DNA from: Thermoanaerobaculia bacterium | GTDB taxonomy: Bacteria; Acidobacteriota; Thermoanaerobaculia; Multivoradales; UBA5704 | Reading direction: 5' to 3' | Length of the DNA stretch: 64,000 bases | Assembly (NCBI GenBank): GCA_036264355.1 | Contig: DATARD010000047.1 | Location: 2,763-66,762 of the forward strand | Shown: positions 8,653 through 25,245 of the stretch, one piece after another | How the letters are laid out: each line of letters begins with the position of its first letter | Position numbering within the stretch: position 1 is the first letter of the stretch | Translations under genes and position numbers: made by a program | Notes under the pieces: model-generated | The model's input: the letters and a program-made list of their open reading frames with translations, nothing else | The model's database searches: none | Told to the model about the DNA's origin: nothing

Positions 8653-8710
8653 GCTGGAATCCAGGTGCCACCCGGGGGCGACCCTGGCCCGCGTGATATA
8701 TGCTCTCGGC

Positions 8711-13304: not shown

Positions 13305-13826
13305 TCAGATGCTCAGGTTGGGGACGATTTCATGCAAGGGCTTGACCGCGCCGAGCTGCCGCAGCAGGCCGAGGCTGTCCATCTCCAGCCAGCCGGCAGT
13401 GAGGGTGCCCTCCACCGGCCCACTCACGGCGAGGCCGTTGACAGTGCCGGTCGGCACCGGCTCGCCGTGCGGGCCGGTGTAGAGGCCGATGGCGGAGAGG
13501 GTGACGTAGTTGCCGGTCGGCTGGATGCCGAGGAACGGGCCGGTGTGCTGGCCGCGCAGGGTCCAGCGGATGGTGACCTCGGCTGCACCGCTCGCGGTCT
13601 CGGCGCCGAAGAGGTCGTTGACCTCCAGCTCGAAGCCGGGGAAGCCCTGGTGGAATTCGCGTGAGAACTGCTTGATACCCTCGGGGCCCGGCGCGAAGCC
13701 CGGGAAGGGGTACTGGAAGCGGAAGTCCTCGGTCAGGATCTCGTCCGCGAGGTCATAGTTGCCGTCACGGAAAACCTGTGTGAACAACTTCTCGACTGCC
13801 TGGGTGCTCGCCTGAACATTGGCCAT
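13305..13826 (-). CDS. SnoaL-like (NTF2-fold, ester-cyclase family) protein, paralog 1.
   Basis: 173 aa beginning MANVQASTQAVEKLFTQVFRDGNYDLADEILTEDFRFQYPFPGF, about 88% identical to paralog 2. Confidence 0.75.
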   Translation of the reverse strand: MANVQASTQAVEKLFTQVFRDGNYDLADEILTEDFRFQYPFPGFAPGPEGIKQFSREFHQGFPGFELEVNDLFGAETASGAAEVTIRWTLRGQHTGPFLGIQPTGNYVTLSAIGLYTGPHGEPVPTGTVNGLAVSGPVEGTLTAGWLEMDSLGLLRQLGAVKPLHEIVPNLSI

Positions 13827-13868
13827 GTCGCCTGCTCCTTCAGAGAACAGCGTTTCTCGAAAAGGCCC

Positions 13869-13883
13869 CCCTCACGCTGAGGG
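13869..13883. promoter_or_regulatory. Conserved leader hairpin ccctca-cgc-tgaggg upstream of SnoaL paralog 1 (repeated at 15909-15921 and 16483-16497).
   Basis: A perfect 6-bp stem with a 3-nt loop lies about 15-25 nt upstream of each SnoaL start. It is embedded in the conserved motif aacagcgtttcNcgaaaaNgNcc. Loop bases vary (cgc/cac) while the stem is preserved. Confidence 0.4.
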
Positions 13884-13964
13884 ACGCCTCGATCCACGGA
13901 ATTGGCAATGAGAGATTCGTGACCATAAAGGTATCGTTCATGGTAAGCGCGACCCGGGTGCGGG

Positions 13965-15335
13965 TCAAGACAGCTCGCCGGCGGCCAGATTCCGCAGTGT
14001 GCTGAGCGACGGCACGAAGGCGTAGACCGCTCCCGCGGCGTGGACGTGGCGCTGGATGGACAGGGTCTGGCGGCCGTGCAGGGGGCAGCGCAGCGTGACC
14101 GGGGCGGCGTCTTCGCCGATCAGGGGGTCGGGCCCGTCGTCGGCTTCGAAGAAGTCGGGGTCGTGGGCCCAGCCGCGCAGCAGGAACTCGAATTGCTGCT
14201 CGATGCTCGCCATGAACGAGTTCATCAGGAGGCCGCGCTCGACGTCGGGGCCGAAGCCGGGGCCGGCCTCGGGATCGTAGACCGGGCCGAACGGCACGGC
14301 GCGCCGGATCAAACGGTGCCACTCGCGGTCGACCACCAGGTTGGAGCGCGGGTACATCTTGCGGATGTGGGAAAAACGCGGCGTCTTGTGGCCGAGCGGA
14401 TCGTCTTCGTAGTCGAAGGCGGCACCCGGCGCAGCGCCGTTATCCACCTCGGGAGAGTGTGACAGGGGAGCGCCGCTCGGCCAGCGGCCGATCAGCCGGG
14501 CCGCCAACTCGTCGGTCGACATCGGCACCCCGCGGCCGGCCAGCTCGGTGCTCGCCGCGGCCAACTGGGCGCGCCAGCCCGGCACGTCCTGCTGGAGACG
14601 CTTGAAGACCTGGAAGGTGCCGTCGTGCATCCACGCCGGACAGGCGATGGGCGGACCCAGGCCGCCGGCGCCGTGGCGCGGGTGGCCGAGGACGAACTCC
14701 CCGGCCGGGGTCAGCCGGCGCTCCGGCTCCCCTTCCGCCGGATCGTCGTGGCCGAGCACCGCCGGCTGCGAGATGCCGTCGCGGAAGCCGAAGTGCTCGC
14801 GGCCGGCCATGGCTCCGGGGAGCAAGCCGCCACGCTCCATGTGCACGACGTCGACCCCGTCGATCCCGTCGCGGGCGAGCCGCCTCTCTTCTTCGAGGGC
14901 TTCCTCGAGACGCTCCAACGAAGTCGAAGCCAGGGTGATGAGGACATCGACGGGCGCCTGGCCCGGACCGCCGAAAGCCCAGCGCTCCGGCGCCCCGGGG
15001 CCGCGGTCACGCAGCTTGCCGGCGCGGGCGGCGGGGCCCTGGCGGAATGCCTCGAAGGCTTCCAGGCCGGCGAGCGCCGCGGGCGAAAGCCGGCCCAGCC
15101 CGCGATAGGAAAGACCGAGGCTCCGGTAGACGGCAGACTCACCGGCGACCGGAGCCGTGTTCACCTGCGCCGTGGCGGTGATCCCGGAGAGCACCCGCCG
15201 CAGCCAGCGGCGGGCACCTCCGGGGTCAGCCAAGGAGAGCATCAGGAAGGCCTGATGCTCTTCGGGAAATGGCGCCAGGACGTTGCCCTGGATCTCCTCC
15301 GAGGCGCGTAGGGGCGCCGCCGCGACGCAGGTCAT
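13965..15335 (-). CDS. DyP-type (dye-decolorizing) heme peroxidase.
   Basis: 456 aa with the DyP GxxDG motif (EHFGFRDGISQPAV) and the overall DyP-family length and pattern. It is flanked on both sides by SnoaL-like paralogs on the same strand. Confidence 0.75.
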   Translation of the reverse strand: MTCVAAAPLRASEEIQGNVLAPFPEEHQAFLMLSLADPGGARRWLRRVLSGITATAQVNTAPVAGESAVYRSLGLSYRGLGRLSPAALAGLEAFEAFRQGPAARAGKLRDRGPGAPERWAFGGPGQAPVDVLITLASTSLERLEEALEEERRLARDGIDGVDVVHMERGGLLPGAMAGREHFGFRDGISQPAVLGHDDPAEGEPERRLTPAGEFVLGHPRHGAGGLGPPIACPAWMHDGTFQVFKRLQQDVPGWRAQLAAASTELAGRGVPMSTDELAARLIGRWPSGAPLSHSPEVDNGAAPGAAFDYEDDPLGHKTPRFSHIRKMYPRSNLVVDREWHRLIRRAVPFGPVYDPEAGPGFGPDVERGLLMNSFMASIEQQFEFLLRGWAHDPDFFEADDGPDPLIGEDAAPVTLRCPLHGRQTLSIQRHVHAAGAVYAFVPSLSTLRNLAAGELS

Positions 15336-15343
15336 GCCGGCGA

Positions 15344-15853
15344 TCAGTAGCGCAGGTTGGGGACGACTTCCTGCAAGGGCTTGACCGCGCCGAGCTGCTG
15401 CAGCAGGCCGAGGCTGTCCATCTCCAGCCAGCCGGCACTGAGGGTGCCCTCCGCCGCCGTCCCAGTGGCGAGTTGGTCAACCGGCGGCTTTTGGCCGGGG
15501 CCGGTGTAGATGCCGATGGCGGAGACGGTCACGTAGTTGCCGGTCGGCTGGATGCCGAGGAACGGGCCGGTGTGCTGGCCGCGCAGGGTCCAGCGGATGG
15601 TGACCTCGGCTTCACCGCTCGCGGTCTCGGTGCCGAAAAGGTCGTTGACCTCCACCTCGAAGCCGGGGAATCCCTGGTTAAATTCGCGCGAGAACTGCTT
15701 GATGCCCTCGGGGCCCGGCGCGAAGCCCGGGAAGGGGTACTGGAAGCGGAAGTCCTCGGTCAGGATCTTGTCCGCGAGGTCGTAGTTGCCGTCACGGAAA
15801 ACCTGCGTAAACAACGCCTCGACTGCCTGGGTGCTCGCCTGAACATTGGCCAT
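15344..15853 (-). CDS. SnoaL-like (NTF2-fold) protein, paralog 2.
   Basis: 169 aa beginning MANVQASTQAVEALFTQVFRDGNYDLADKILTEDFRFQYPFPGF. Its stop lies 9 bp from the DyP start. Confidence 0.75.
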   Translation of the reverse strand: MANVQASTQAVEALFTQVFRDGNYDLADKILTEDFRFQYPFPGFAPGPEGIKQFSREFNQGFPGFEVEVNDLFGTETASGEAEVTIRWTLRGQHTGPFLGIQPTGNYVTVSAIGIYTGPGQKPPVDQLATGTAAEGTLSAGWLEMDSLGLLQQLGAVKPLQEVVPNLRY

Positions 15854-15936
15854 GTCGCCTGCTCCTTCTTTAGATAACTAGGTAACAGCGTTTCCCGAAA
15901 AAGACCTTCCTCACGCTGAGGGACGCCCCCAGCGAT

Positions 15937-16442
15937 CAGTAGCGCAGGTTGGGGACGACTTCCTGCAAGGGCTTGACCGCGCCCAACTGCTGCAGCAGGC
16001 CGAGGGTGTCCATCTCCAGCCAGCCGGAACTGAGGGAGCCCTCCGCCGCCGTCCCCGTCCCAGGGGTGGTCGGCTAGGTCGGCGGATGGCCCTTGTAGAT
16101 GCCGATGGCGGAGACGGTGACGTAGTTGCCGGTCGGCTGGATGCCGAGGAACGGGCCGGTGTGCTGGCCGCGCAGAGTCCAGCGGATGGAGACCTCGGCT
16201 TCACCGCTCAGGGTCTCGGTGCCGAAGAGGTCGTTGACCTCCACCTCGAAGCCGGGGAAGGCCTGGTGGAATTCGCGGGAAAACTGCTTGATGCCCTCGG
16301 GGCCCGGCGCGAAGCCCGGGAAGGGGTACTGGAAGCGGAAGTCCTCGGTCAGGATTTCGTCCGCGAGGTCGTAGTTGCCGTCACGGAAGACCTGCGTGAA
16401 CAACTTCTCGACTGCCTGGGTGCTCGCCCGAACATTATCCAT
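15937..16442 (-). pseudogene. SnoaL-like paralog 3, interrupted by an in-frame TAG.
   Basis: A homologous start (MDNVRASTQAVEKLFTQ) lies at 16442. The reading frame then hits TAG at 16071-16073 (…SAIGIYKGHPPT*). The same frame continues after the stop with the conserved C-terminus (…GTAAEGSLSSGWLEMDTLGLLQQLGAVKPLQEVVPNLRY*). The track ORF 16074..16511 carries a spurious N-terminal extension. Confidence 0.65.
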
Positions 16443-16575
16443 GTCGCCTGCTCCTTTAGGTAACAGCGTTTCGAAAAGACCCCCCTCACACTGAGGGACG
16501 TCTCGATTCACGGGGGCGGCGTAAGAAATTCATGATCGTCAATGTAACGTATGGTAAGCGCGGCCCGGCCGCGGG

Positions 16576-18432
16576 TCAAGAGAGCGGCGCCACCGGCTCG
16601 CGCAGATCCTGGAACTGGTGTTGACAAAGCCGGGCGTAGAGGCCGTCCTGGGCCATGAGCTCCTCGTGGCGGCCGAGCTCGACGATGCGGCCGCGGTCGA
16701 GGATGGCGATGCGGTGGGCGATGCGGACCGTGCTCAGCCGGTGGGCGACGACGATCGCGGTGCGGCCGGCCAGCAGCCGCTCGAGGGCCTCCTGCACCAG
16801 GTGCTCGCTCTCGCTGTCGAGGGCGGAGGTGGCCTCGTCCAGAAGCAGCATGCGCGGGTCCTTGAGCAGGGCGCGGGCGATCGCCAGGCGCTGGCGCTGG
16901 CCGCCGCTCAGCTTGGTGGCCCGCTCGCCGACCACCGTGTCGTAGCCCTCCGGCAGCTCGGTGATGAAGGCGTGGGCGTTGGCCGCCCGGGCCGCCGCGA
17001 TCATCTCCTCTTCGCTCGCCTCGAGCCGGCCGTAGAGGATGTTCTCGCGCACCGTGCCGCCGAAGAGATGCGTTTCCTGGGGCACGAGGGCGATCTGCCG
17101 CCGCAGGCTCGCGAGGCTCACCGTGCGGAGGTCGACGCCGTCGATCAGCACCCGGCCCGCGGTGGGATCGTAGAAGCGCGGCACCAGGTTGACCAGGGTG
17201 GTCTTGCCGGCCCCGCTGGGGCCCACCACGGCGAGGATCTCGCCCGGCTCGATCTCCAGGGAGACCTCGGCCAGCACCGGCGCCATCGTGACGCCGGGGG
17301 CCGGGGCGGCATAGGCGAAGCTCACCCGCTCGAAGGTCAGGCGGCCGGCCATGAGGGGCAGGTCGGGGGCGCCGGGCAGCTCGACCACGTCGGTCCGGGT
17401 ATCGAGCAGCTCGAGCAGCCGCAGCGACGAGCCCACTGCCTGCTGCAGCCGGCTCCACAGCCCGCCGAACCAGTTGATGGCGCCGCCCATCATCGAAGTG
17501 AGGATGATGAAGGTCACGAGCTGCCCCGGGCTGAGCTTGCCCGCCAGCACCTGCTTGCCGCCGAACCAGATGATCAGCACCGTGCAGGTGAAAAACATCG
17601 CCGAGAGGAGCGGCCCGAAGGTCACCTCCAGGTACAGCCGGCGGAGCGCGAGGGTGAAGAGCTGGTGCAGCCGCGCCTTGAAGCGCCCGGCCTCGTACTC
17701 CTCGCGGACGAAGGAGCGCACGATGCGGATGCCGCTCAACGACTCCTCCAGCACCGTGGTCACGTCGGCGACCACGTCGGTCAGGTCCTGGGACAGTTTG
17801 CGCAGGGACCGGCCGAGGATCACCGAGGTGATCGACACGGTGGGCACCAGCAGCACCATCAGGAGGGTCAGGCGCCATTCGAGATAGAGGATCACCACCA
17901 GCGAGCCGAAAAAGGTGAACACCTGCTGCAGCAGCCCGGCGACGTCGGCGGTGAACACGCTGCGGATGTTCGTGACGTCGTTCATCACCCGCGACACCAG
18001 CTCGCCGGTGCGGCGCTGGCTGAAGAACGACAGCGACTGGGTCTGCAGGTGCTCGTAGAGCTCCTGGCGCAGGTCGATGGTCAGGCGCACGCCGACGAAG
18101 CTCAGGAGGTAGCCCACCAGCAGTGAGGTGCCGCTCTGCAGGAGGTAGATGGCGATGAGGGCGAGGGTCACCCGGGTCAGCAGGCTGGGATCGCCGCCGG
18201 GCACGATGGAGTCGACCAGGAAGCTCCAGGCGAGGGGGCCGGCCAGGCTCAGGGCGCCCCCGACGAGCACCCCCAGGAGGGCCAGGAGCAGCCGCCGGCG
18301 GTAGGGCCGGACAAAGACGAACAGCCGCCTCAGGGGCGCGAGACTGCTCGCCATGCGCCCCCCGCGCAGGTTGGCGAGGAGGGTCATGAGGCCGCCGATG
18401 GTGGGTTGCGCGCTATCCAGGGGTGTGGCCAT
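16576..18432 (-). CDS. ABC exporter with fused transmembrane and ATP-binding domains (MsbA/type-I exporter family).
   Basis: Six-TM N-terminal half, then Walker A GPSGAGKTT, signature LSGGQRQRLAIARALL and Walker B LLLDEATSALD. It lies directly upstream of, and on the same strand as, the SnoaL/DyP cluster. Confidence 0.85.
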   Translation of the reverse strand: MATPLDSAQPTIGGLMTLLANLRGGRMASSLAPLRRLFVFVRPYRRRLLLALLGVLVGGALSLAGPLAWSFLVDSIVPGGDPSLLTRVTLALIAIYLLQSGTSLLVGYLLSFVGVRLTIDLRQELYEHLQTQSLSFFSQRRTGELVSRVMNDVTNIRSVFTADVAGLLQQVFTFFGSLVVILYLEWRLTLLMVLLVPTVSITSVILGRSLRKLSQDLTDVVADVTTVLEESLSGIRIVRSFVREEYEAGRFKARLHQLFTLALRRLYLEVTFGPLLSAMFFTCTVLIIWFGGKQVLAGKLSPGQLVTFIILTSMMGGAINWFGGLWSRLQQAVGSSLRLLELLDTRTDVVELPGAPDLPLMAGRLTFERVSFAYAAPAPGVTMAPVLAEVSLEIEPGEILAVVGPSGAGKTTLVNLVPRFYDPTAGRVLIDGVDLRTVSLASLRRQIALVPQETHLFGGTVRENILYGRLEASEEEMIAAARAANAHAFITELPEGYDTVVGERATKLSGGQRQRLAIARALLKDPRMLLLDEATSALDSESEHLVQEALERLLAGRTAIVVAHRLSTVRIAHRIAILDRGRIVELGRHEELMAQDGLYARLCQHQFQDLREPVAPLS

Positions 18433-18526
18433 CGACGTCTTCTGCCCGAACCTTGAACCGATGTAAAACGGTCGGAGTCTACATCAGAGAGTCCCGAGAG
18501 GGTAGAGCCGACGGCGGCGGGCTCCG

Positions 18527-18751
18527 TCAAAGCGGACGGCGCACTTGTTTCTTCTCCCACTCCTGGCGATGCTGGTTGGCCTCCGCCAACGAGCGGAACT
18601 TGCGGACGCCGGGCTCGAACCTCCAGGGGTGGAGCGCGAAGCTCAGCTCGGTCAGCTCACACGCGATGCGGAGGTTGTCCGGATCGAGCGGCCGAAGCGG
18701 CCGGACTCCGGGCATGTCCGTCACCGAGCGGTACTTGCGGATCGGCATCAT
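18527..18751 (-). CDS. Small hypothetical protein (74 aa), overlapping the upstream nucleotidyltransferase gene by 4 nt.
   Basis: An ATGA overlap with the 18748..19224 gene suggests a two-gene module. There is no recognisable HEPN Rx4-6H motif. It may be a TA/Abi partner. Confidence 0.35.
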   Translation of the reverse strand: MMPIRKYRSVTDMPGVRPLRPLDPDNLRIACELTELSFALHPWRFEPGVRKFRSLAEANQHRQEWEKKQVRRPL

Positions 18752-19224
18752 TCGTCTCCCAGATCGAAGGCTTCACGAATCCGGGCGGCATCGGCGCGGT
18801 CTTGTGGTCGCACCGTGTCTTTCTTCATACGGTAGAGCATCTTTGGATTGGCGACCTGGACGAGCAGATCTCCCAACTCGATCTCGTCGCAATTGGTGGC
18901 GAGATCCTGCCACGTAAAGGCCTCTCCGAGCCGGGTGAGGATGTCCATCGAGTAGTGGCCGTGCGGAGGGGTATATTCCACGGCCGGATAGTCTCCGGCC
19001 AACTCCCCGGGATCGATCTGATCGACGTTCGGGTCGTTGAACAGGCCGCGGAGCGCCCGCTTGAGGGCCTCCAGATTCTCGATCTTCGGGGAGACGAACA
19101 GGTCGAGGTCGTGGGTCGCGCGGGGAAGACCTTGGGCTGCCATTGCCATCGAGCCGATGACCACGAAGTCAACGTGCTCGCGCACGAGCGCGGCGAGAAT
19201 CGCCTTGGCCTCCTCCAAAGTCAC
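18748..19224 (-). CDS. Minimal nucleotidyltransferase-fold protein (Pol-beta superfamily, MNT/AbiEii-like).
   Basis: The GS...hDhDLhV motif (VIGSMAMAAQGLPRATHDLDLFV) marks it as a Pol-beta-type NTase. Its 158 aa length and coupling to a small downstream ORF are typical of toxin-antitoxin or abortive-infection modules. Confidence 0.55.
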   Translation of the reverse strand: MTLEEAKAILAALVREHVDFVVIGSMAMAAQGLPRATHDLDLFVSPKIENLEALKRALRGLFNDPNVDQIDPGELAGDYPAVEYTPPHGHYSMDILTRLGEAFTWQDLATNCDEIELGDLLVQVANPKMLYRMKKDTVRPQDRADAARIREAFDLGDE

Positions 19225-19278
19225 GCTTGCACTCTATCATCCTATCATCCGGGCCGGCTGTAAGCCCCGACGCGCGGA

Positions 19279-22095
19279 GTGCTAGACTCTCCGTATTCCA
19301 TGACGAACGGAATCCTCGCCCTCCTCCAGACGGCGCAAGCGACACCGGCGGCGACCCCCTCCGGCATCTGGGCGAGCAATGGGGACAAGATCATCGTCGC
19401 CGTTGTCACCACCGTTATCACCACCGTCGTAGTCCTTATCCTGTCCGAGTCCATCAAGGCACTGCTGAAAAAGATCGGGAGCTGGATCGAGACCGCTTTC
19501 GCCGGTCTCGGCTGGCGTTTCCGCAAGCGCTACCTGGCGGCGCTGGCCGACGGCCACCGCTGGCTCAAGCTGATCGGCGTCTACAGCTCGACGAATCTCC
19601 ATGCGCCGCGATTGCAGGAGGTATACGTCTCTCTCCGCCTGGCTGCTGCCAAGGGGGATGACGGACCGCGCTTCGCCTGGAACGACGTCTTGGCGCCGGA
19701 GGAGAAGCGGCTGGTGATCCTGGGTAGCCCTGGTGCCGGCAAGTCGACGCTTCTCGATTATCTGGTGCTCGTTTTCACCGGCGCCGTGCGGCATCCGCTG
19801 CGCGAGCGGTTGGGCGGCCCGTTCCCCCTGATCGCCCGTCTCCGCGAGTTGGGGAGCGAAGGGGCGGAGTCGCTGACCGCCTTGCTGGCGAAGACCGCGC
19901 CTCTCAAGCAGATCCCGGCCGGCTATCCGGAACGGTGGCTGAAGCGCGGCGGCTGCATCGTCCTCCTCGACGGCCTCGACGAGGTGTTGGACGAATCGCG
20001 CCACGTCCGGGCCGTCCGGGAGATCGAGAGCCTGGTCGGCGACTATCCGGAGAACGTCTACGTGGTGACCTGCCGGGTGGCCGGCTGGCGCAATCAGCTC
20101 CCGGGGTTCCGCACCTGGGAGATCCAACCGTTCACCGGAGACGACATCCGCAAGTTCCTCGGCGTCTGGTACCGCGAGGTGCTGCGCACGCAGGCGGTCA
20201 ATCTCCTGGGTGTCTCGCCGAAACTGGACCAGATGCAGGAGGCAGAGCGGACCGCGTTTGAAGAAGCCGGCCGGCGTGTGGAGGCTCTGTGGCAGTCGCT
20301 CTCCGGCAACGAGGGCCTGCTGCGGATCGCTTCGACGCCGCTCCTCCTGTCGCTGATGGCCTTCGTCCACTATCACAAGGTCGACCTTCCCAAGGGGCGA
20401 GCCCGGCTGTACGGGGATTGCGTGGAGATTCTTCTCGATCTCTGGGACCGGAAGGACAAGCGGCTGGAGCTTCCCGAGGTCACGCTCAAAGAGAAGAGGA
20501 TGGTGCTCGAAGCCATCGCCTTCCACTATCTGAAGGAGGATCTTCTAGAAGCGGACCTGCCGATGCTCGCCGGGCTGGTCCAGCCTGTCCTCCCAAAGAT
20601 CAAAGTCCAGATCACGGCGGAGAACCTGCTCCAGCAGATCTGGAAGCGCTCCGGCATCCTGCAGGAGCAGCGCCTTGGTTTCTACGGCTTCGCCCACCGC
20701 GCGCTGCACGACTACCTGGCCGCCGCTTGCGTGGTGGAGCACGAGCGCGACGCGCTGCTTCTGGAACGGGCCGGCGAGGAGCGCTGGCGGGAGGTGATCC
20801 TGATCGCCGCCGGCCTCGCCCCCGCGGGCCGTGCGGCGCGGCTGGTGGAGTCCCTCCTCGCCCGCGGTGGCGAGTCCGGAGCGGAACTGGAGATGGCGGG
20901 CCTGACCCTCGCCGAAGACGTTCAGCTCGGCGACGATCTGCGGGCCGAGGTGAAGAAGCGGCTGCTCGACCGGCTCACGAAGGAAGAGGCCGCGGGGCCG
21001 TTCCGGCGGTTGGCCAGCGCGCTGGTGACCGCGGATCTGGAGGCGGCGCGACAGTGGATGGAGGATGTGCTGCGCGGGCGCGATCCGGAGCGGCAGAAGC
21101 GGGTTCTGGCGCTTTTGCCGGAGCTGGGCGAGACGCAGTCCAAGCCGATGGCGTCTCTGCTTGTGCGGCTGATTGGGGAGGAGACAGGCGAAGCAGGGAT
21201 CAGAGCTCAAGCGGCACAGGTTTTGGCGGGCATCCGATTTTCGCCCGATGCCGAGACTTGGCGGGTACTGGAGTCGGCGCAGCAGGGGGCACCGGCTCTG
21301 AGGAGGGCTGCCGCGTGGGCCTGGTGCGAGCTCGGGCGGGCGGTGGATTTCGGTTTGGTCAAGGTGCCAGCCGGAGAGTTCTTGATGGGCAGTAGGGAAG
21401 GAGATGTCCATTCGGAGGAGAAGCCGCAGCACCCCCTCTATCTGCCGGACTTCTATATTGGGAAAGCTCCGGTGACGGTTGAGGCGTTCCGCAATTTTCT
21501 CAGGCAGAGCGGGCACCCGCTGGAAGATCAGGCGGACTTCGACCGGTGGAACAAGCACACCGATCACCCTGTCGTCGGAGTGAGCTGGCACGATGCTTTG
21601 GCGTTCGCCGGCTGGCAGGGCTACGTCTTGCCGAGCGAGGCGGAGTGGGAAAAGGCGGCGCGGGGAACCGACGGCCGGCAGTACCCTTGGGGCAACGAGT
21701 GGAAGGCTGAATGCGCGAATACTTCTGAATACTGGGGTACAGAAGGCGGGAGGCGGCTTCCTTGGGCGGCCCTGTTACCGCGGAAAGGCCATTCGACGAC
21801 GACGCCTGTTGGAAGATTCTCGCCGCAAGGGGATTCTCCTTACAACTGCGTGGACATGGCGGGGAACGTGTGGGAGTTGACGCGGAGCTGTTTTTCCACC
21901 TACCCATACGATTCCTTGGACGGCCGTGAAGATCTGGAAGCATCGGCGCAAGCCGCCCGTGTGATACGCGGCGGCGCGTTCGCCTACACATCGAGGTACG
22001 TCCGTTGTGCCTTCCGGTACGTGTCCAGCCAGGACGGCGGGAACGTCTTCGTAGGATTCCGGGTTGTGTTGTACCCATTCCGCTCTGATATCTGA
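19279..22095 (+). CDS. Membrane-anchored STAND NTPase with an N-terminal TM helix, a NACHT domain, HEAT-like repeats and a C-terminal FGE-sulfatase (SUMF1/EgtB-like) domain.
   Basis: TM segment IIVAVVTTVITTVVVLIL, Walker A GSPGAGKST, Walker B CIVLLDGLDEV and the NACHT-typical TCRVAGW motif. HEAT/ARM-like helical repeats follow (residues ~550-680). The C-terminal ~250 aa (VKVPAGEFLMGS...HPVVGVSWHDALAFAGW...RVIRGGAF) match the formylglycine-generating-enzyme fold. The start could alternatively be the ATG for MTNGIL about 21 nt downstream. Confidence 0.8.
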   Translation: MLDSPYSMTNGILALLQTAQATPAATPSGIWASNGDKIIVAVVTTVITTVVVLILSESIKALLKKIGSWIETAFAGLGWRFRKRYLAALADGHRWLKLIGVYSSTNLHAPRLQEVYVSLRLAAAKGDDGPRFAWNDVLAPEEKRLVILGSPGAGKSTLLDYLVLVFTGAVRHPLRERLGGPFPLIARLRELGSEGAESLTALLAKTAPLKQIPAGYPERWLKRGGCIVLLDGLDEVLDESRHVRAVREIESLVGDYPENVYVVTCRVAGWRNQLPGFRTWEIQPFTGDDIRKFLGVWYREVLRTQAVNLLGVSPKLDQMQEAERTAFEEAGRRVEALWQSLSGNEGLLRIASTPLLLSLMAFVHYHKVDLPKGRARLYGDCVEILLDLWDRKDKRLELPEVTLKEKRMVLEAIAFHYLKEDLLEADLPMLAGLVQPVLPKIKVQITAENLLQQIWKRSGILQEQRLGFYGFAHRALHDYLAAACVVEHERDALLLERAGEERWREVILIAAGLAPAGRAARLVESLLARGGESGAELEMAGLTLAEDVQLGDDLRAEVKKRLLDRLTKEEAAGPFRRLASALVTADLEAARQWMEDVLRGRDPERQKRVLALLPELGETQSKPMASLLVRLIGEETGEAGIRAQAAQVLAGIRFSPDAETWRVLESAQQGAPALRRAAAWAWCELGRAVDFGLVKVPAGEFLMGSREGDVHSEEKPQHPLYLPDFYIGKAPVTVEAFRNFLRQSGHPLEDQADFDRWNKHTDHPVVGVSWHDALAFAGWQGYVLPSEAEWEKAARGTDGRQYPWGNEWKAECANTSEYWGTEGGRRLPWAALLPRKGHSTTTPVGRFSPQGDSPYNCVDMAGNVWELTRSCFSTYPYDSLDGREDLEASAQAARVIRGGAFAYTSRYVRCAFRYVSSQDGGNVFVGFRVVLYPFRSDI

Positions 22096-22213
22096 AACCT
22101 CGGTCTCTGAATCTGTGGGCCTCTGTTTCTTTTCTTGAAGAAGGGGGAGTCCAGGGGGGGCCCCCTCTGGAGGGTGCTGCGGCCACTCCGGCGCCTTGGG
22201 CCTCAAACCCGAC

Positions 22214-22418
22214 GGGCCAGAGAGTCTCTGGGCGGCCGAAAAGACTTGCCGAGCCGTCGAGAGAGTCGCTGGGCGGAGGAAATGCCTTCACGGACCATCG
22301 AGAGAGGCTCTGGACTGAGGAAATGCCTTCACGGACCGTCGAGAGACTCTCTCGGCCGAGGAAATGGTTTGACGAGCCGTCGAGAGAGTCTCTGGCCGCG
22401 GCAGTGACTCTCCCGACG
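22214..22418. repeat. Five imperfect tandem copies of a 41-bp unit, each with an inverted-repeat core (gagagWSTCTCTgg), followed by strong hairpins (e.g. cttcggcc-gttt-ggccgaag, about 22472-22491).
   Basis: The units are cgtcgagagagtcgctgggcggaggaaatgccttcacggac and variants. They lie in the 570-bp intergenic gap between the NACHT gene and the Uma2 gene. A GC hairpin right after the NACHT stop (about 22150-22175) looks like a terminator. Confidence 0.6.
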
Positions 22419-22666
22419 CGCTCGCCGGGCAACGATCGGGACGAGAAGAGGCTCTGGAGCGGCAAAGTGCGGCTTCGGCCGTTTGGCCGAAGAAGGGCGG
22501 CCACGCAGGGTGCCTTCGGCATCCTGCGGACCGCCCCTACGAGGGCAGGGCAAGGCGGGGACCTGCCGAGCCCTGAACCCCATGGTAGACTCATTCCGCG
22601 GGAAAGCGGACCCCGGTGGCTGGTTGGCGCCACTTCGTGGTGTCCGGAGGAGAAGGCAGGTATCCT

Positions 22667-23362
22667 ATGGCCGCATTACCGCTCCAGCACGAGATCGACT
22701 ATCCGGAATCCGACGGGAGGCCCTTGGGAGAGACCGACTGGCACCGCGAGGAGATCCTCGACTTGATCTATGCCCTGCAGGAGCGCTACCGGGATGCTCC
22801 TGACGTCTATGTCTCGGGTAACCTCTTTGTCTATTACGTCCAGGGGGACCCTTCGAAGTGCGTCTGCCCGGACGTCTTCCTTGTCCAGGGTGTTGCCAAG
22901 GAGAAGAGGCCGGTCTACAAGCTCTGGGAGGAGGGCAAGGGGCCGTCCCTGGTGATCGAGATGGCGTCGAAGACGACTTGGGAAGAGGATCTGGAGGCGA
23001 AGAAGACGAAGTATGCCCGCATCGGTGTGCTGGAGTACTTCCTGTTCGATCCTCTGGATCAGTACCTGCATCCGCGCCTGCAGGGATTTCGCATGGTGGG
23101 TGGACGCTACCTCTCGATTCCGGCAGCGGCCGACGGTTCGCTGGTCAGCCAGGTGACCGGTCTGAAGCTGTCGCTCGAAGGCATGAGACTGCGCTTGGTG
23201 GATCTGGCGAGCGGCGAGCCTCTGTTGTGGACCACCGAGGAAGCGGATGCCCGCAAAGCGGCCGAAGCAGCCCGGGAGGCCGCCGAAGCCAAAGCCCGAG
23301 CGGCGGAGGAAGAGATTCTCCGGCTGCGCCGTGCGCTCGGCGAGCGCCGTTCCACGAGTTGA
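22667..23362 (+). CDS. Uma2-family (DUF820/PD-(D/E)xK) putative endonuclease.
   Basis: Uma2 motifs: YPESDGRPLGETDWH, PDVFLVQGV, PSLVIEMASKTT, KYARIGVLEYFLFDP and GGRYLSIP. RBS GGAGGAG upstream of ATG 22667. The track start at 22616 is a likely over-extension. Confidence 0.75.
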   Translation: MAALPLQHEIDYPESDGRPLGETDWHREEILDLIYALQERYRDAPDVYVSGNLFVYYVQGDPSKCVCPDVFLVQGVAKEKRPVYKLWEEGKGPSLVIEMASKTTWEEDLEAKKTKYARIGVLEYFLFDPLDQYLHPRLQGFRMVGGRYLSIPAAADGSLVSQVTGLKLSLEGMRLRLVDLASGEPLLWTTEEADARKAAEAAREAAEAKARAAEEEILRLRRALGERRSTS

Positions 23363-23493
23363 CAGCCCCTCTCCCTCCTCCTATACTCGAAGGCCCGAGT
23401 TCTCAAAGACTTAAAGCCAGAACTCGAACCCCCCACGCTCGTGGGGCGACCGGGCGCGTGCGCCTGGAATCCATGCCAAGGAGGTAGTTTGTA

Positions 23494-25245
23494 ATGCCGG
23501 CGAGTAAAGAACAGGACCTGCCGACGTTGACGGCCGAGTCCGACGACGACGAGCAGCTCAGTGCGGAGGCTTACAAAAAGCTGCTCGATCTGTATGACGA
23601 CAGCATGCGCAATCTCACCGAGGGTGAGATCGTGCCCGGACGGGTGATCGGCATCACGGCGAACTCCGTCATCGTGGACGTGGGCTACAAGTCGGAGGGG
23701 CTGGTCCCCATCGACGAGTTCATGGACCGTGACGGATCACTGCAGGTCAAGGAAGGCGACGAAGTCGATGTCCTCCTCGAGAAGACCGAGGACCTCGAGG
23801 GACACGTCCTCCTCTCGTTCACCAAGGCTCAGCGCATGCGCCGCTGGACCGAGGTGGAGAAGGCATACAAGGACGGCCGCATCATCAAGGGGCGCGTCAC
23901 CGACCGGATCAAGGGCGGCCTGACGGTGGACGTCGGGTTGCGCGCCTTCCTGCCCGGTTCGCTGGTCGACATCAAGCCGGTGAAGAACCTCGAGTCGCTG
24001 CGTGGCCAGGAGTTGGAGTTCAAGGTCATCAGCCTCGACCGCCGGCGCAACAACATCGTCCTCTCCCGCAAGGCCGTGCTCGAAACCGAGCTGGTCAAGA
24101 AGAAGGCCGAGACGCTGAAGCGGCTGGAGGAGGGGGCCCGGCTCAAGGGCGTGGTCAAGAACATCACCGACTACGGCGTGTTCATCGACCTCGGCGGCAT
24201 CGACGGCCTGCTGCACATCACCGACATCTCCTGGGGCCGCGTCAATCATCCCTCCGAGCACTTCACGGTGGGCGACGAGGTCGAGGTGGTCGTGCTCAAG
24301 TTCGATCCCGAGACCGAGCGTGTCTCCCTGGGCTACAAGCAGAAGAGCGACGATCCCTGGACGCTGGTCGACAAGAAGTACCCCATCGGCTCGCGGGTCA
24401 AGGGCCGGGTGGTGTCGCTGGTCGACTACGGCGCGTTCGTCGAGATCGAGGAGGGCGTCGAGGGTCTCATCCACGTCAGCGAGATGTCGTGGACCAAGAA
24501 GGTCGTCAACCCCGCCAAGATCCTCGAAGTGGGCGACGAAGTGGAGGCGATCGTCTCCGAGCTGGACATGGACCAGCGCCGCATCTCCCTGTCGCTCCGC
24601 CAGACCGAGCGCAACCCGTGGGAAGAGCTGGAGGACACCCATCCCGAGGGGAGCATCATCGAAGGCAAGGTGCGCAACCTCACCGAGTTCGGCGCCTTTG
24701 TGGAGATCACGGACGGCATCGACGGCCTCATCCACGTCTCCGACATGAGCTGGACGAAGCGGGTCAAGCATCCCAGCGAGATCCTCAAGAAGGGCGATGT
24801 GGTGCGCGCCCGGATCACCAACATCGACGTCGAGAACCAGCGCGTCTCCCTGTCGATCAAGGAGTTCATGCCCAACGAGTGGCAGGACTTCGCCGACCAC
24901 CACCACGTCGGCGACGCCCTGGAAGGCCGCGTCGTCAACGTGACCGACTTCGGGCTGTTCATCGACATCTACAACGGTCTCGAGGGCCTCGCCCACATCA
25001 GCGAGATCGAGCTGGCGGCCGGCAGCAAGCTGGAAGACCACTACAAGGTCGGAGACTGGGTGCGCACCCGCATCCTGCGCATCGAGGAGGAGGAGAAGAA
25101 GGTCGGCCTCTCCATGCGTGGCGTCGGCCAGCCTTCCGAGGCGGAGCTCGCCGAGCTCCAGGCAGCCTACGAAGCGCGGATGGGCAGCATCGAGCCGCGG
25201 CCCAAGAAGCGCGACGCGCAGGACGAGACCGAAGAGCAGCAGTAG
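23494..25245 (+). CDS. rpsA: 30S ribosomal protein S1 (six S1 domains).
   Basis: RBS AGGAGG before the ATG. Repeated S1 (OB) domains carry G.V..i.d.G.FV.l motifs, and the C-terminus is acidic. Total length 583 aa. Confidence 0.9.
   Translation: MPASKEQDLPTLTAESDDDEQLSAEAYKKLLDLYDDSMRNLTEGEIVPGRVIGITANSVIVDVGYKSEGLVPIDEFMDRDGSLQVKEGDEVDVLLEKTEDLEGHVLLSFTKAQRMRRWTEVEKAYKDGRIIKGRVTDRIKGGLTVDVGLRAFLPGSLVDIKPVKNLESLRGQELEFKVISLDRRRNNIVLSRKAVLETELVKKKAETLKRLEEGARLKGVVKNITDYGVFIDLGGIDGLLHITDISWGRVNHPSEHFTVGDEVEVVVLKFDPETERVSLGYKQKSDDPWTLVDKKYPIGSRVKGRVVSLVDYGAFVEIEEGVEGLIHVSEMSWTKKVVNPAKILEVGDEVEAIVSELDMDQRRISLSLRQTERNPWEELEDTHPEGSIIEGKVRNLTEFGAFVEITDGIDGLIHVSDMSWTKRVKHPSEILKKGDVVRARITNIDVENQRVSLSIKEFMPNEWQDFADHHHVGDALEGRVVNVTDFGLFIDIYNGLEGLAHISEIELAAGSKLEDHYKVGDWVRTRILRIEEEEKKVGLSMRGVGQPSEAELAELQAAYEARMGSIEPRPKKRDAQDETEEQQ

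What the first reader, a model, noticed from the sequence alone, without database searches (positions are those of the whole stretch)
19279..22095. Membrane-anchored NACHT-HEAT-FGE STAND NTPase: candidate anti-phage/conflict sensor with an N-terminal TM effector
The architecture is a single N-terminal TM helix, a NACHT NTPase (GSPGAGKST / IVLLDGLDEV), HEAT-like repeats and a C-terminal formylglycine-generating-enzyme (SUMF1-like) domain. FGE-type domains are recognised as ligand or invader sensors in bacterial STAND/NACHT conflict systems. Here there is no nuclease, TIR or protease effector. The only N-terminal module is a transmembrane segment, which suggests membrane disruption or localisation on activation. 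This is an Avs/bNACHT-like design with an unusual output. The gene is flanked by a TA-like NTase module on one side and a tandem-repeat array plus a Uma2 nuclease on the other, typical of defence islands.
Basis: partly seen in the sequence, partly recalled or inferred. Interest (0 to 1): 0.75.

Follow-up and report, generated by a model that had tools for sequence, protein, structure and literature searches.

The report
Membrane-anchored NACHT receptor, hypervariable lectin sensor
This gene encodes a membrane-tethered bacterial relative of animal NOD-like immune receptors whose "enzyme-like" tail is really a catalytically dead lectin-fold binding domain of the type that related bacteria hypermutate with a retroelement; it is a well-formed example of a class already described by computation but never tested.

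Summary
ORF 19279/19300–22095 (+) encodes a 931–938-aa protein with one N-terminal hydrophobic helix, a canonical NACHT NTPase, a HEAT-like helical arm and a C-terminal FGE-sulfatase-fold domain. The FGE domain lacks both catalytic cysteines and there is no sulfatase nearby, so the database name "SUMF1/EgtB/PvdO nonheme iron enzyme" is misleading. This is a family of hundreds of proteins (Acidobacteriota, Chloroflexota), and several members are direct targets of diversity-generating retroelements (DGRs). In seven related loci the last ~120 nt of the gene form a variable repeat matched by a template repeat that differs mostly or only at adenines, and five of them also show Avd and/or a reverse transcriptase. 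The window copy has no DGR within 64 kb. Even so, its equivalent segment is the most variable part of the family and keeps the NNC codon footprint of AAC-templated mutagenesis (10/10 positions; P=0.004 given the amino acids). It therefore belongs to the known "antigen-receptor-type" NACHT–FGS/C-type-lectin class, which is predicted to be immune but has never been tested. The idea that the TM helix is the effector is plausible but unsupported. The "defence island" context is weak. Verdict: new member of a known kind, moderate interest.

The parts
19279..22095 (+). CDS of the TM-NACHT-HEAT-CLec(FGE-like) protein. It is 938 aa from the GTG at 19279; the probable true start is the ATG at 19300 (931 aa).
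   Evidence: ORF list. 100%-identical database protein P0001 of 931 aa. Translation check. GC3 of 0.81 versus 0.88-0.96 in flanking housekeeping genes.
19300..19389 (+). Short, poorly conserved N-terminal tail (30 aa), predicted to lie outside the membrane.
   Evidence: Family entropy about 2.2 and occupancy 0.56-0.8. pLDDT below 50. Many relatives have only about 10 residues here.
19390..19446 (+). Predicted single transmembrane/anchor helix IIVAVVTTVITTVVVLILS. It is lengthened here by a 12-bp tandem duplication at 19400-19427.
   Evidence: Kyte-Doolittle 2.8 over 19 aa. A hydrophobic run is present in 103/106 homologues (median 15 aa). K+R is enriched on the C-terminal flank in 95/103, which predicts N-out/C-in. 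TRF duplication. It forms part of one continuous helix 28-69 in AF2.
19447..19506 (+). Conserved basic juxtamembrane helix (ESIKALLKKIGSWIE...; family motif SEPIKALFKKIG).
   Evidence: Conserved across Acidobacteriota and Chloroflexota members.
19711..20169 (+). NACHT nucleotide-binding domain: Walker A GSPGAGKST 19723-19749, Walker B VLLDGLDE 19960-19983, TCR sensor motif 20068-20076.
   Evidence: Pfam NACHT 40.6 bits above the 26.7 cutoff. These residues are invariant in 60 homologues. Foldseek matches to NOD2, NLRP3 and NLRC4 over about 700 columns.
20689..20724 (+). Winged-helix motif FAHRALHDYLAA with a conserved His. It corresponds to the NLR 'FxHxxFQEFLAA' ADP-contacting motif (correspondence from my own knowledge).
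   Evidence: F464, A465, R467, L469, L473, A475 are invariant and H466 is at least 90% conserved. The region falls inside the NLR structural alignment.
20779..21351 (+). HEAT-like alpha-solenoid arm (about 12 helices) linking the NACHT module to the sensor domain.
   Evidence: AF2 helices H494-H684, pLDDT mostly above 85. Pfam HEAT_2/HEAT hits at the equivalent place in homologues. The window protein itself has no Pfam hit here.
21355..22068 (+). FGE-sulfatase-fold (C-type-lectin-like) domain, catalytically dead; the predicted ligand sensor.
   Evidence: Pfam 183.7 bits. Best solved relatives are CalU17 and FGEs. The first catalytic Cys falls in a 4-residue deletion and the second is replaced by Thr, relative to 2q17/6muj/6s07.
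21958..22065 (+). VR-equivalent hypervariable patch (RVIRGGAFAYTSRYVRCAFRYVSSQDGGNVFVGFRV), co-linear with the DGR variable repeats of relatives.
   Evidence: Codon-for-codon alignment to the VR/TR pairs of L010 and L025. Positional entropy of 2.3-3.1 between invariant scaffold residues, even within the clade at or above 60% identity. 10/10 NNC codons at template-Asn positions versus 9/26 elsewhere in the segment (Fisher p=3.6e-4). P=0.004 conditional on amino acid.

Best explanation
The gene encodes a stand-alone, membrane-tethered NLR-like receptor. It belongs to a family whose C-terminal FGE-fold domain is a non-enzymatic C-type-lectin-type binding module, with a ligand-contacting patch that was written by DGR (AAC-templated, adenine-specific) mutagenesis.

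Proposed working cycle:
1. One N-terminal helix anchors the protein in the cytoplasmic membrane, N-out/C-in, so the NACHT, HEAT arm and lectin domain face the cytoplasm. This is predicted from sequence.
2. At rest the NACHT is ADP-locked through the winged-helix His. This is inferred by homology to NOD2/NLRC4.
3. The hypervariable patch at the end of the lectin domain binds a specific, probably foreign, protein or peptide. This is inferred from DGR targeting in relatives and from the hypervariability.
4. Binding permits nucleotide exchange and NACHT oligomerisation. This is inferred by homology.
5. Oligomerisation clusters the N-terminal helices. That either perturbs the membrane directly or activates or recruits an unidentified partner, leading to growth arrest. 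This step is speculative.

The window copy has no DGR cassette within 64 kb. Its specificity is therefore either fixed (an orphaned target) or maintained by a DGR elsewhere in the genome.
For: - Architecture: Pfam NACHT and FGE-sulfatase; AF2 pLDDT 86; Foldseek to NOD2/NLRP3/NLRC4 and to CalU17/FGE.
- Intact NTPase motifs are invariant in 60 homologues.
- Dead FGE site: both catalytic Cys are absent.
- DGR link: P0082 (51% identity, same architecture) is followed by RVT_1 and bAvd. Its VR/TR pair has 18/18 mismatches at TR adenines.
- Adenine-specific VR/TR pairs sit at the 3' end of the family gene in L010, L016, L019, L021, L023, L029 and L025. RT and/or Avd homologues were detected in L010, L016, L021, L025 and L029.
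- These DGR-linked members carry the same TM + SEPIKAAFKKIG + NACHT N-terminus.
- The window's VR-equivalent is the family's most variable segment. It keeps NNC at 10/10 template-Asn positions.
- Across 12 copies with no local DGR, NNC is 97 observed versus 63.1 expected (z=6.9). For amino acids with more than two-fold degeneracy it is 44/56 versus 23.4 (z=6.1).
- Stand-alone gene: eight relatives sit in eight unrelated neighbourhoods.
- TM conservation and positive-inside bias.
- Literature: the NACHT+FGS 'antigen-receptor type' class and DGR-diversified STAND-CLec targets.
Against: - No member of the NACHT-FGS/CLec class has been tested experimentally (PMC10907252). An immune role is therefore an inference.
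- PADLOC and NCBIfam defence models do not recognise the protein beyond its P-loop.
- No known defence system is adjacent in the window.
- The hydrophobic run is short (median 15 residues) in most relatives and membrane insertion is unverified.
- There is no TR, RT or Avd in the 64-kb window, so current diversification of this copy is unproven.
- The NNC counts across copies are not phylogenetically independent.
- No ligand and no effector activity are known.
Confidence: 0.62

Rival explanations
1. It is an enzyme, as the database name says (SUMF1/EgtB/PvdO-family formylglycine-generating or sulfoxide-synthase-type enzyme), regulated by an attached NTPase.
For: Strong Pfam FGE-sulfatase hit. 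The NCBI/JGI names say so. Partial NCBIfam similarity to SenA/EgtB/GldK/PvdO C-terminal halves.
Against: Both catalytic cysteines of FGE are missing. All NCBIfam scores are far below their cutoffs (for example EgtB 92 versus 360) and cover only the lectin-fold half, with no DinB-type metal domain. No sulfatase gene was found among the ORFs annotated in the window. The would-be active-site loop is the most variable part of the family and is a DGR mutagenesis target in relatives. The best structural match, CalU17, also lacks the Cys pair.
Confidence: 0.03
2. It is a non-immune signalling STAND. The receptor senses an endogenous or environmental ligand, such as a cell-envelope or kin-recognition cue. 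The TM helix is only an anchor, and output goes through an unidentified partner rather than cell suicide.
For: There is no recognisable effector domain and no defence-model hit. The N-terminal module is family-specific and not shuffled like typical effectors. Defence and non-defence STAND clades are interspersed (PMC13581612). A signal-transduction role for NACHT-FGE DGR targets was the 2012 suggestion.
Against: DGR-driven hypervariability fits an arms race or open-ended recognition better than a fixed endogenous ligand. Genomic locations are variable and next to TA modules or transposases. Tandem and multiple paralogues occur per genome. CHAT-TPR genes lie within 8 kb in two loci.
Confidence: 0.22
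3. It is an orphaned or decaying DGR target: a once-diversified receptor that lost its retroelement and is now drifting, possibly non-functional.
For: No TR/RT/Avd in 64 kb. Most Acidobacteriota relatives also lack a local cassette. Several of them show partial erosion of the NNC footprint, at 6-8 of 10.
Against: The ORF is intact, with all NTPase motifs preserved, and the model is of high confidence. The window copy's NNC footprint (10/10) is as clean as in copies with a local VR/TR pair, L025 at 10/10 and L010 at 9/10. DGRs are known to act on remote targets (my own knowledge). About 14 kb of the contig and the rest of the genome were not visible.
Confidence: 0.3
4. It is an exported protein: the hydrophobic segment is a cleaved signal peptide and the NACHT-lectin body acts outside the cytoplasm.
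For: The hydrophobic segment is N-terminal and short, at a median of 15 residues.
Against: The n-region is acidic or neutral rather than basic, and positive charges lie after the helix in 95/103 members. In the window protein 30 residues precede the segment, and 12 at the family median. No A-x-A cleavage motif follows it, and the conserved motif there is SEPIKALFKK. A P-loop NTPase needs cytoplasmic nucleotide (established knowledge).
Confidence: 0.03

Closest known systems
'Antigen-receptor-type' bacterial NACHT proteins with an FGS (formylglycine-generating-enzyme-sulfatase) C-terminal domain (Kibby et al., bioRxiv 10.1101/2022.07.19.500537; Kaur et al. 2020, PMC7159879)
   Same: A central NACHT with the D[GAS]hDE signature, optional HEAT repeats, and a single C-terminal FGS domain predicted to bind an invader or guarded molecule and in several cases diversified by a DGR.
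   Different: That class was defined computationally. The bNACHTs tested experimentally have other sensors. The papers list enzymatic or adaptor N-terminal effectors, whereas this family has only a conserved single hydrophobic helix. I could not place the window protein in one of their numbered clades.
DGR-diversified STAND-CLec targets of multicellular bacteria, e.g. Thiohalocapsa PB-PSB1 DGR 3 NACHT targets (Doré et al. 2024, PMC10907252)
   Same: NACHT plus a C-terminal C-type-lectin/FGE domain carrying the VR. The Thiohalocapsa locus was recovered by my own search (L044), with two VRs and one TR. Its targets start with 1-2 TM-like segments. Chloroflexota members of the window's family have the same target-RT-Avd-TR layout.
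   Different: Only about 24% identity to the window protein. The window copy has no DGR within 64 kb. The host is a Thermoanaerobaculia MAG, a group I do not know to be multicellular.
Eukaryotic NLRs (NOD2, NLRP3, NLRC4) and bacterial Avs/bNACHT anti-phage STANDs
   Same: NBD-HD-WHD fold with a conserved WHD histidine (Foldseek E about 1e-11 to 1e-12 over about 700 columns). Tripartite N-terminal output / NTPase / C-terminal sensor logic.
   Different: 13-15% identity. The sensor is a lectin fold behind a short HEAT arm rather than LRR/TPR. There is no CARD/PYD/nuclease/TIR output domain. PADLOC and NCBIfam models match only the P-loop stretch, far below any cutoff.
Genuine formylglycine-generating enzymes (human SUMF1; S. 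coelicolor 2q17; T. curvata 6s07) and CalU17 (7ml6)
   Same: Same fold (TM-score normalised to target about 0.65) and recognisable sequence similarity (E 1e-23 to 1e-33).
   Different: The copper-binding Cys pair is absent. The domain is fused to a NACHT, and the equivalent of the active-site loop is hypervariable.
Membrane-acting immune NTPases and oligomerisation-driven helix pores (plant ZAR1 resistosome; TM effectors of some Avs; Tmn/YobI and KAP NTPases, PMC13001434)
   Same: The concept is the same: an NTPase switch at the membrane whose oligomerisation could convert N-terminal helices into a membrane lesion. Pore-forming effectors are reported for some bacterial STANDs.
   Different: No homology was shown. 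Tmn has two TM helices inserted in the P-loop domain and KAP has four. Here a single, constitutively hydrophobic helix precedes the NACHT. The ZAR1 comparison is from my own knowledge and was not tested.

Membership tests
NACHT clade of STAND NTPases | Profile match to the NACHT domain above the curated threshold | tested here: met
   PF05729, 40.6 bits versus a cutoff of 26.7, residues 145-297.
NACHT clade of STAND NTPases | Walker A GxxxxGK[ST] and the NACHT-specific Walker B signature D[GAS]hDE | tested here: met
   GSPGAGKST and LLDGLDE. These are invariant across 60 homologues. The signature is as defined in Kibby et al..
NACHT clade of STAND NTPases | C-terminal helical and winged-helix extension of the AAA+ core, as in NLRs | tested here: met
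   The AF2 model aligns with NOD2/NLRP3/NLRC4 over about 570-760 columns at probability 1.00. The FAHRALHDYLAA motif is conserved.
Formylglycine-generating enzyme (SUMF1/FGE), catalytic | FGE-sulfatase fold | tested here: met
   PF03781, 183.7 bits. Foldseek to 2q17/6s07/1y1e.
Formylglycine-generating enzyme (SUMF1/FGE), catalytic | Pair of catalytic, copper-binding cysteines (LCHDSYC loop) | tested here: not met
   In the alignment to 2q17, 6muj and 6s07 the first Cys falls in a 4-residue deletion and the second aligns to Thr.
Formylglycine-generating enzyme (SUMF1/FGE), catalytic | Genomic association with a sulfatase substrate | tested here: not met
   No sulfatase among the window ORFs that I annotated, nor in the eight homologue neighbourhoods.
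EgtB/OvoA/SenA sulfoxide or selenoxide synthases | Full-length match including the N-terminal DinB-like metal-binding domain, above the NCBIfam cutoff | tested here: not met
   SenA 93.5 versus 420 and EgtB 92.2 versus 360. Only the C-terminal lectin-fold part of each profile is matched.
DGR variable (target) protein | C-type-lectin/FGE-fold domain with the variable region at its C-terminal end | tested here: met
   The segment 21958-22065 is co-linear with confirmed VRs of family members and is hypervariable at interspersed positions.
DGR variable (target) protein | A cognate template repeat differing from the VR only at adenines | tested here: not met
   No similar repeat is present in the 64-kb window and a self-BLAST screen was negative. 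Family members L010, L016, L019, L021, L023, L029 and L025 do meet this feature. The rest of the genome could not be searched.
DGR variable (target) protein | DGR reverse transcriptase and accessory Avd nearby | tested here: not met
   tblastn with the L010 RT and Avd found nothing in the window. Hits were found in L010, L016, L021, L025 and L029.
DGR variable (target) protein | Mutational footprint of AAC-templated mutagenesis (NNC codons at variable positions) | tested here: met
   10/10 NNC versus 9/26 elsewhere in the segment (p=3.6e-4). P=0.004 conditional on amino acid.
Validated anti-phage STAND systems (Avs1-21, tested bNACHTs, EruA) | Match to a defence-system profile (PADLOC / NCBIfam) | tested here: not met
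   Only P-loop-length matches were found: mad8 at E=1.9e-4 over 33 aa, and EruA at 39 bits versus 1000 over 27 aa.
Validated anti-phage STAND systems (Avs1-21, tested bNACHTs, EruA) | Demonstrated protection against phage, dependent on the NTPase and effector | not testable with these tools
   This needs an experiment. The literature states that CLec-type STAND sensors are uncharacterised.
Single-pass membrane protein (N-out/C-in anchor) | Hydrophobic helix long enough to span the bilayer, with positive-inside charge bias | tested here: inconclusive
   The window copy has 19 uncharged residues (KD 2.8), but the family median is 15. K+R is enriched on the C-terminal flank in 95/103. No dedicated topology predictor was available.

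The most novel reading that the evidence does not exclude
The window copy is a live adaptive receptor. Its lectin patch would be rewritten in trans by a DGR located elsewhere in the Thermoanaerobaculia genome; its NNC footprint is as clean as in copies with a local VR/TR pair. On ligand binding, the NACHT ring would bundle the conserved N-terminal helices into a membrane lesion. That would make it a bacterial, resistosome-like pore coupled to a hypermutating antigen sensor in a single polypeptide.
Probability: 0.12. Interest if true: 0.8.

Novelty: new member of a known kind. Interest (0 to 1): 0.4.

Why it matters
NACHT receptors with FGE/C-type-lectin sensors are the proposed bacterial analogue of an adaptive antigen receptor: an NLR-type switch coupled to a DGR-hypermutated binding site. 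Nobody has yet shown what they bind or what they do. This family is compact (about 930 aa), encoded by a single gene and highly conserved outside the variable patch. It gives a confident structure model, and it occurs both with and without an adjacent DGR. Those features make it a practical entry point for experiments on ligand specificity and on whether one membrane helix can serve as the output. The result also corrects a misleading database name ("nonheme iron enzyme") that is propagated over hundreds of proteins.

Tried and rejected
1. I looked for a template repeat for the gene's 3' end in the window by blastn-short and blastn against all 64 kb and by a self-BLAST adenine-bias screen. Neither found one.
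2. tblastn with the L010 RT and Avd against the window found nothing.
3. A metagenome scan with a pattern anchored on the invariant scaffold flanking the VR, meant to catch a remote TR or population variants, gave 0 hits, not even the gene itself. The follow-up protein scan added only one close full-length relative.
4. I tried to read the ~14 kb of the source contig outside the window through edge genes. One gene was found only on a 1.4-kb contig and the other was not on record.
5. PADLOC and NCBIfam searches of the protein and its neighbours gave no defence family. The only result was a weak PDC-S03 candidate hit for Uma2.
6. An Rfam search of 18000-24000 for the 41-bp array found nothing.
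7. A viral-contig scan showed the family is not phage-borne; the only hit was one 28%-identity NACHT-only match.
8. I considered and rejected paralogy with the other large low-GC3 ORFs in the window. They are Kelch/C25-peptidase and FG-GAP/ASPIC/TPR proteins.
9. I considered the N-terminal module as a portable effector cassette. An exhaustive search found it only on this family, plus two NACHT-HEAT variants without an FGE domain.


Full report
OBSERVATION

The window contains a 938-codon ORF at 19279-22095 (+) starting from a GTG. An identical protein is already in public databases as a 931-aa product starting at the ATG at 19300. It comes from a Thermoanaerobaculia metagenome-assembled genome and is named "SUMF1/EgtB/PvdO family nonheme iron enzyme".

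Pfam places a NACHT domain at residues 145-297 (40.6 bits, cutoff 26.7). It places an FGE-sulfatase domain at 693-930 (183.7 bits, cutoff 23.3). The Walker A motif (GSPGAGKST) is present. So are the NACHT-type Walker B (LLDGLDE, matching the D[GAS]hDE signature quoted), a TCR sensor motif and a winged-helix FAHRALHDYLAA motif. All of these are invariant or nearly so in a 60-sequence family alignment.

AlphaFold2 run on that alignment gives a confident model (mean pLDDT 86, pTM 0.82). The model has:
- a disordered 27-residue tail;
- one uninterrupted helix at residues 28-69;
- an alpha/beta NTPase core followed by helical and winged-helix modules;
- about 12 stacked helices at residues 494-684;
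- a mixed alpha/beta C-terminal domain.

Foldseek matches the C-terminal domain to CalU17 and to formylglycine-generating enzymes. It matches the central ~700 residues to NOD2, NLRP3 and NLRC4. The "HEAT-like" label gets no Pfam support in this protein itself, but homologues score for HEAT_2/HEAT at the equivalent place.

THE N-TERMINAL HELIX

The segment IIVAVVTTVITTVVVLILS (19390-19446) is 19 uncharged residues long with Kyte-Doolittle 2.8. It is followed by a basic stretch, ESIKALLKKIG.

The arrangement is a family trait. A hydrophobic run is present in 103 of 106 full-length homologues, followed by the motif SEPIKALFKKIG. Lys+Arg counts are higher on the C-terminal flank in 95 of 103. By the positive-inside rule this predicts N-out/C-in, which puts the NTPase in the cytoplasm where it must be.

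Two cautions apply. First, the run has a median of only 15 residues in the family. The window copy is longer only because of a 12-bp tandem duplication at 19400-19427. Second, no dedicated topology predictor was available. Membrane anchoring is therefore likely but not shown.

An exhaustive HMMER search of 1.84 billion representatives with residues 24-135 alone found just 61 hits. These are essentially this family, fragments of it, and two longer NACHT-HEAT proteins without an FGE domain. The module is thus family-specific. It is not one of the promiscuous effector cassettes that shuffle among STAND proteins.

THE FGE-LIKE DOMAIN IS NOT AN ENZYME

Alignment to the S. coelicolor and T. curvata enzymes shows two changes. 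The first catalytic cysteine of the LCHDSYC loop falls in a 4-residue deletion, and the second aligns to threonine. The best solved relative, CalU17, also lacks the pair.

NCBIfam models for EgtB, SenA, OvoA, PvdO and GldK match only the lectin-fold half and score far below their cutoffs. No sulfatase gene was found among the window ORFs I annotated or in eight homologue neighbourhoods (21-23, 35-37, 70, 71).

WHAT THE FAMILY IS

The word-index search returned 688 proteins with E ≤ 1e-5. Nearly all of the 120 best are NACHT+FGE proteins of 900-950 aa. A scan of one genome per species found full-length members in Thermoanaerobaculia, Holophagales and other Acidobacteriota. It also found them in Chloroflexota/Anaerolineae, sometimes with several copies per genome (three loci from one Holophagales MAG) or in tandem (L006).

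Close homologues at 63-81% identity lie in entirely different neighbourhoods, so there is no conserved partner gene. Two things do recur beside the gene:
- small toxin-antitoxin pairs: PIN/PhdYeFM, DUF433/DUF5615, BrnT/BrnA, and a lone HicA toxin about 7 kb away in L010;
- occasionally CHAT-TPR proteins or a transposase.

THE DECISIVE CONTEXT: DGR TARGETING

The Anaerolineales homologue P0082 (51% identity, 96% coverage, same architecture) is followed directly by a reverse transcriptase (RVT_1) and a bAvd gene. The last 122 nt of its coding sequence match a repeat downstream of Avd at 85% identity. All 18 mismatches lie at adenines of the downstream copy. That is the signature of a diversity-generating retroelement (DGR), with a variable repeat (VR) in the gene and a template repeat (TR) outside it.

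A systematic screen found VR/TR pairs biased to TR adenines (84-100% of mismatches) at the 3' end of the family gene in L010, L016, L019, L021, L023 and L029, all Chloroflexota. It found another in L025, an Acidobacteriota genome. RT and/or Avd homologues were detected in L010, L016, L021, L025 and L029. The DGR-linked members have the same TM + SEPIKAAFKKIG + NACHT N-terminus as the window protein.

The same search recovered the Thiohalocapsa PB-PSB1 locus studied by Doré et al. It has two VRs and one TR, and its targets also begin with one or two TM-like segments.

THE WINDOW COPY

There is no TR, RT or Avd anywhere in the 64 kb. Nevertheless, the segment 21958-22065 (RVIRGGAFAYTSRYVRCAFRYVSSQDGGNVFVGFRV) aligns codon-for-codon with the confirmed VRs and TRs.

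In the family alignment this segment alternates invariant scaffold residues (R, GG, RC, R, GFRV) with positions of entropy 2.3-3.1. This holds even within the clade at or above 60% identity, where the NACHT averages 0.54.

DGR templates encode variable positions as AAC, so mutagenised codons keep a third-position C. I took the ten positions where the independent TRs of L010 and L025 both carry AAY:
- The window has NNC at 10 of 10, against 9 of 26 in the rest of the segment (Fisher p=3.6e-4). Third-position C is 0.37 gene-wide.
- Two-fold degenerate amino acids inflate this test, so I repeated it conditional on the amino acid, using each gene's own codon usage. The window gives P=0.004.
- Across 12 copies with no local DGR, NNC is 97 observed versus 63.1 expected (z=6.9).
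- For amino acids with more than two-fold degeneracy only, it is 44 of 56 versus 23.4 (z=6.1).

The copies are not phylogenetically independent, but the amino acids at these positions differ between them while the third base persists. The patch has therefore been written by DGR-type mutagenesis. Whether this continues through a remote DGR, or whether this is an orphaned target, cannot be decided from 64 kb. Attempts to find a TR or variants in metagenomes, or to read beyond the window, failed.

GENOMIC SETTING

The gene has GC3 of 0.81. It sits with an AbiEii-like nucleotidyltransferase (18748-19224, GC3 0.77), an overlapping 74-codon ORF and a Uma2 endonuclease-like gene (22616-23362, GC3 0.76). 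Together they form a pocket of about 4.7 kb between an ABC exporter and rpsA-HU-HIT-lpxB-msbA, all with GC3 of 0.82-0.96.

PADLOC finds no system here, only a weak candidate-family hit for Uma2. "Accessory islet with TA-like genes" is a fair description. "Typical defence island" is an overstatement.

MECHANISM

Shown:
- the domain order;
- intact NTPase motifs;
- NLR-like fold;
- dead FGE site;
- a family-conserved hydrophobic N-terminus with positive-inside bias;
- stand-alone genetics;
- DGR targeting of the C-terminal patch in relatives;
- a DGR footprint in this copy.

Inferred by homology: ADP-locked autoinhibition through the winged-helix His, and ligand-induced oligomerisation.

Inferred from DGR logic: the variable patch is the ligand-binding surface, and the ligand is probably foreign and variable.

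Speculative: the output. With no enzymatic or adaptor domain, the simplest idea is that oligomerisation bundles the N-terminal helices and damages the membrane. This would be analogous to helix-funnel resistosomes or to the pore-forming effectors reported for some bacterial STANDs. Recruitment of an unlinked partner is equally open.

COMPARISON WITH KNOWN SYSTEMS

- NACHT+FGS(+HEAT) proteins are one of the two "antigen-receptor-type" C-terminal classes of bacterial NACHT proteins.
- FGE-like DGR targets fused to NACHT were noted in 2012.
- DGR-diversified STAND-CLec proteins were analysed in depth in 2024, with the explicit statement that they have not been characterised experimentally.
- FGE-sulfatase sensors appear again in the 2026 STAND survey.

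The window protein passes the NACHT membership tests and fails those for catalytic FGE and EgtB-type enzymes. For DGR-target membership it meets the structural and footprint features but not the requirement for a local TR and RT. It is not recognised by any curated defence model.

VERDICT

This is a real, well-formed member of a known but untested class. The novelty is that of a new member. The family-wide single-helix N-terminus and the DGR footprint without a local DGR are its points of interest. Interest 0.4.

Noticed in passing
window 22213-22395: A 41-bp tandem array (x4.3, about 80% matches) lies in the 520-bp gap between the NACHT-FGE stop and Uma2. Each unit carries a palindromic core (CCGTCGAGAGAGTCTCTGG). 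All 7 matches in the 64 kb fall inside the array (0.07 expected). There is no Rfam hit, it is not CRISPR-like, and it is not a DGR template. Its function is unknown.
   Followed up: partly
window 19400-19427: A 12-bp tandem duplication (CCGTTATCACCA x2.3) inside the TM-coding segment adds four residues (TTVI/TTVV). It lengthens the hydrophobic run to 19 aa, versus 15 in the closest homologues.
   Followed up: partly
window 18527-19224 (-): A 158-aa AbiEii-like nucleotidyltransferase (Pfam 31.4 bits) overlaps by 4 nt a downstream 74-codon ORF that has no family hit. This may be a small TA-like pair transcribed divergently from the NACHT gene. Neither PADLOC nor NCBIfam recognises either ORF.
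   Followed up: partly
window 22616-23362 (+): A Uma2-family putative endonuclease (58.6 bits) gives weak hits to the PADLOC candidate family PDC-S03 (E=7e-10). Its low GC3 (0.76) resembles that of the NACHT gene.
   Followed up: no
window 13305-16511 (-): Three SnoaL-like paralogues (13305-13826, 15344-15853, 16074-16511) surround a DyP-type peroxidase-like gene (13965-15335). The third copy looks truncated at its C-terminus.
   Followed up: no
window 2413-8652 (+): A 2079-aa protein has N-terminal Kelch repeats and a Peptidase_C25 (gingipain-like) domain, followed by a MacB/FtsX-type permease at 8615-11161.
   Followed up: no
window 48078-51059, 52780-55947, 58727-60406 (+): Three FG-GAP / ASPIC-UnbV repeat proteins, two of them with TPR repeats, are clustered in the right half of the window.
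   Followed up: no
L025 6800-14300 (Acidobacteriota MAG contig_7017): This DGR locus has the layout target-Avd-TR-RT followed by a second NACHT-type gene. The upstream target and the RT appear split by frameshifts. About 16% of VR/TR mismatches are not at adenines. This suggests either assembly errors or a decaying DGR.
   Followed up: partly
L006 8001-13873: Two family paralogues (P0081, P0116) sit in tandem with a 4-nt overlap, inserted among CO-dehydrogenase/xanthine-dehydrogenase accessory genes (XdhC, CoxE-VWA, AAA_5). The second copy has an aberrant, extended C-terminal region in the alignment.
   Followed up: no
L007 / L099: CHAT-TPR (caspase-like) proteins lie within 8 kb of the family gene in two unrelated loci. 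L007 also has an AAA_21 + DUF4276 gene pair nearby. These may be a loose association with other conflict-type genes.
   Followed up: no
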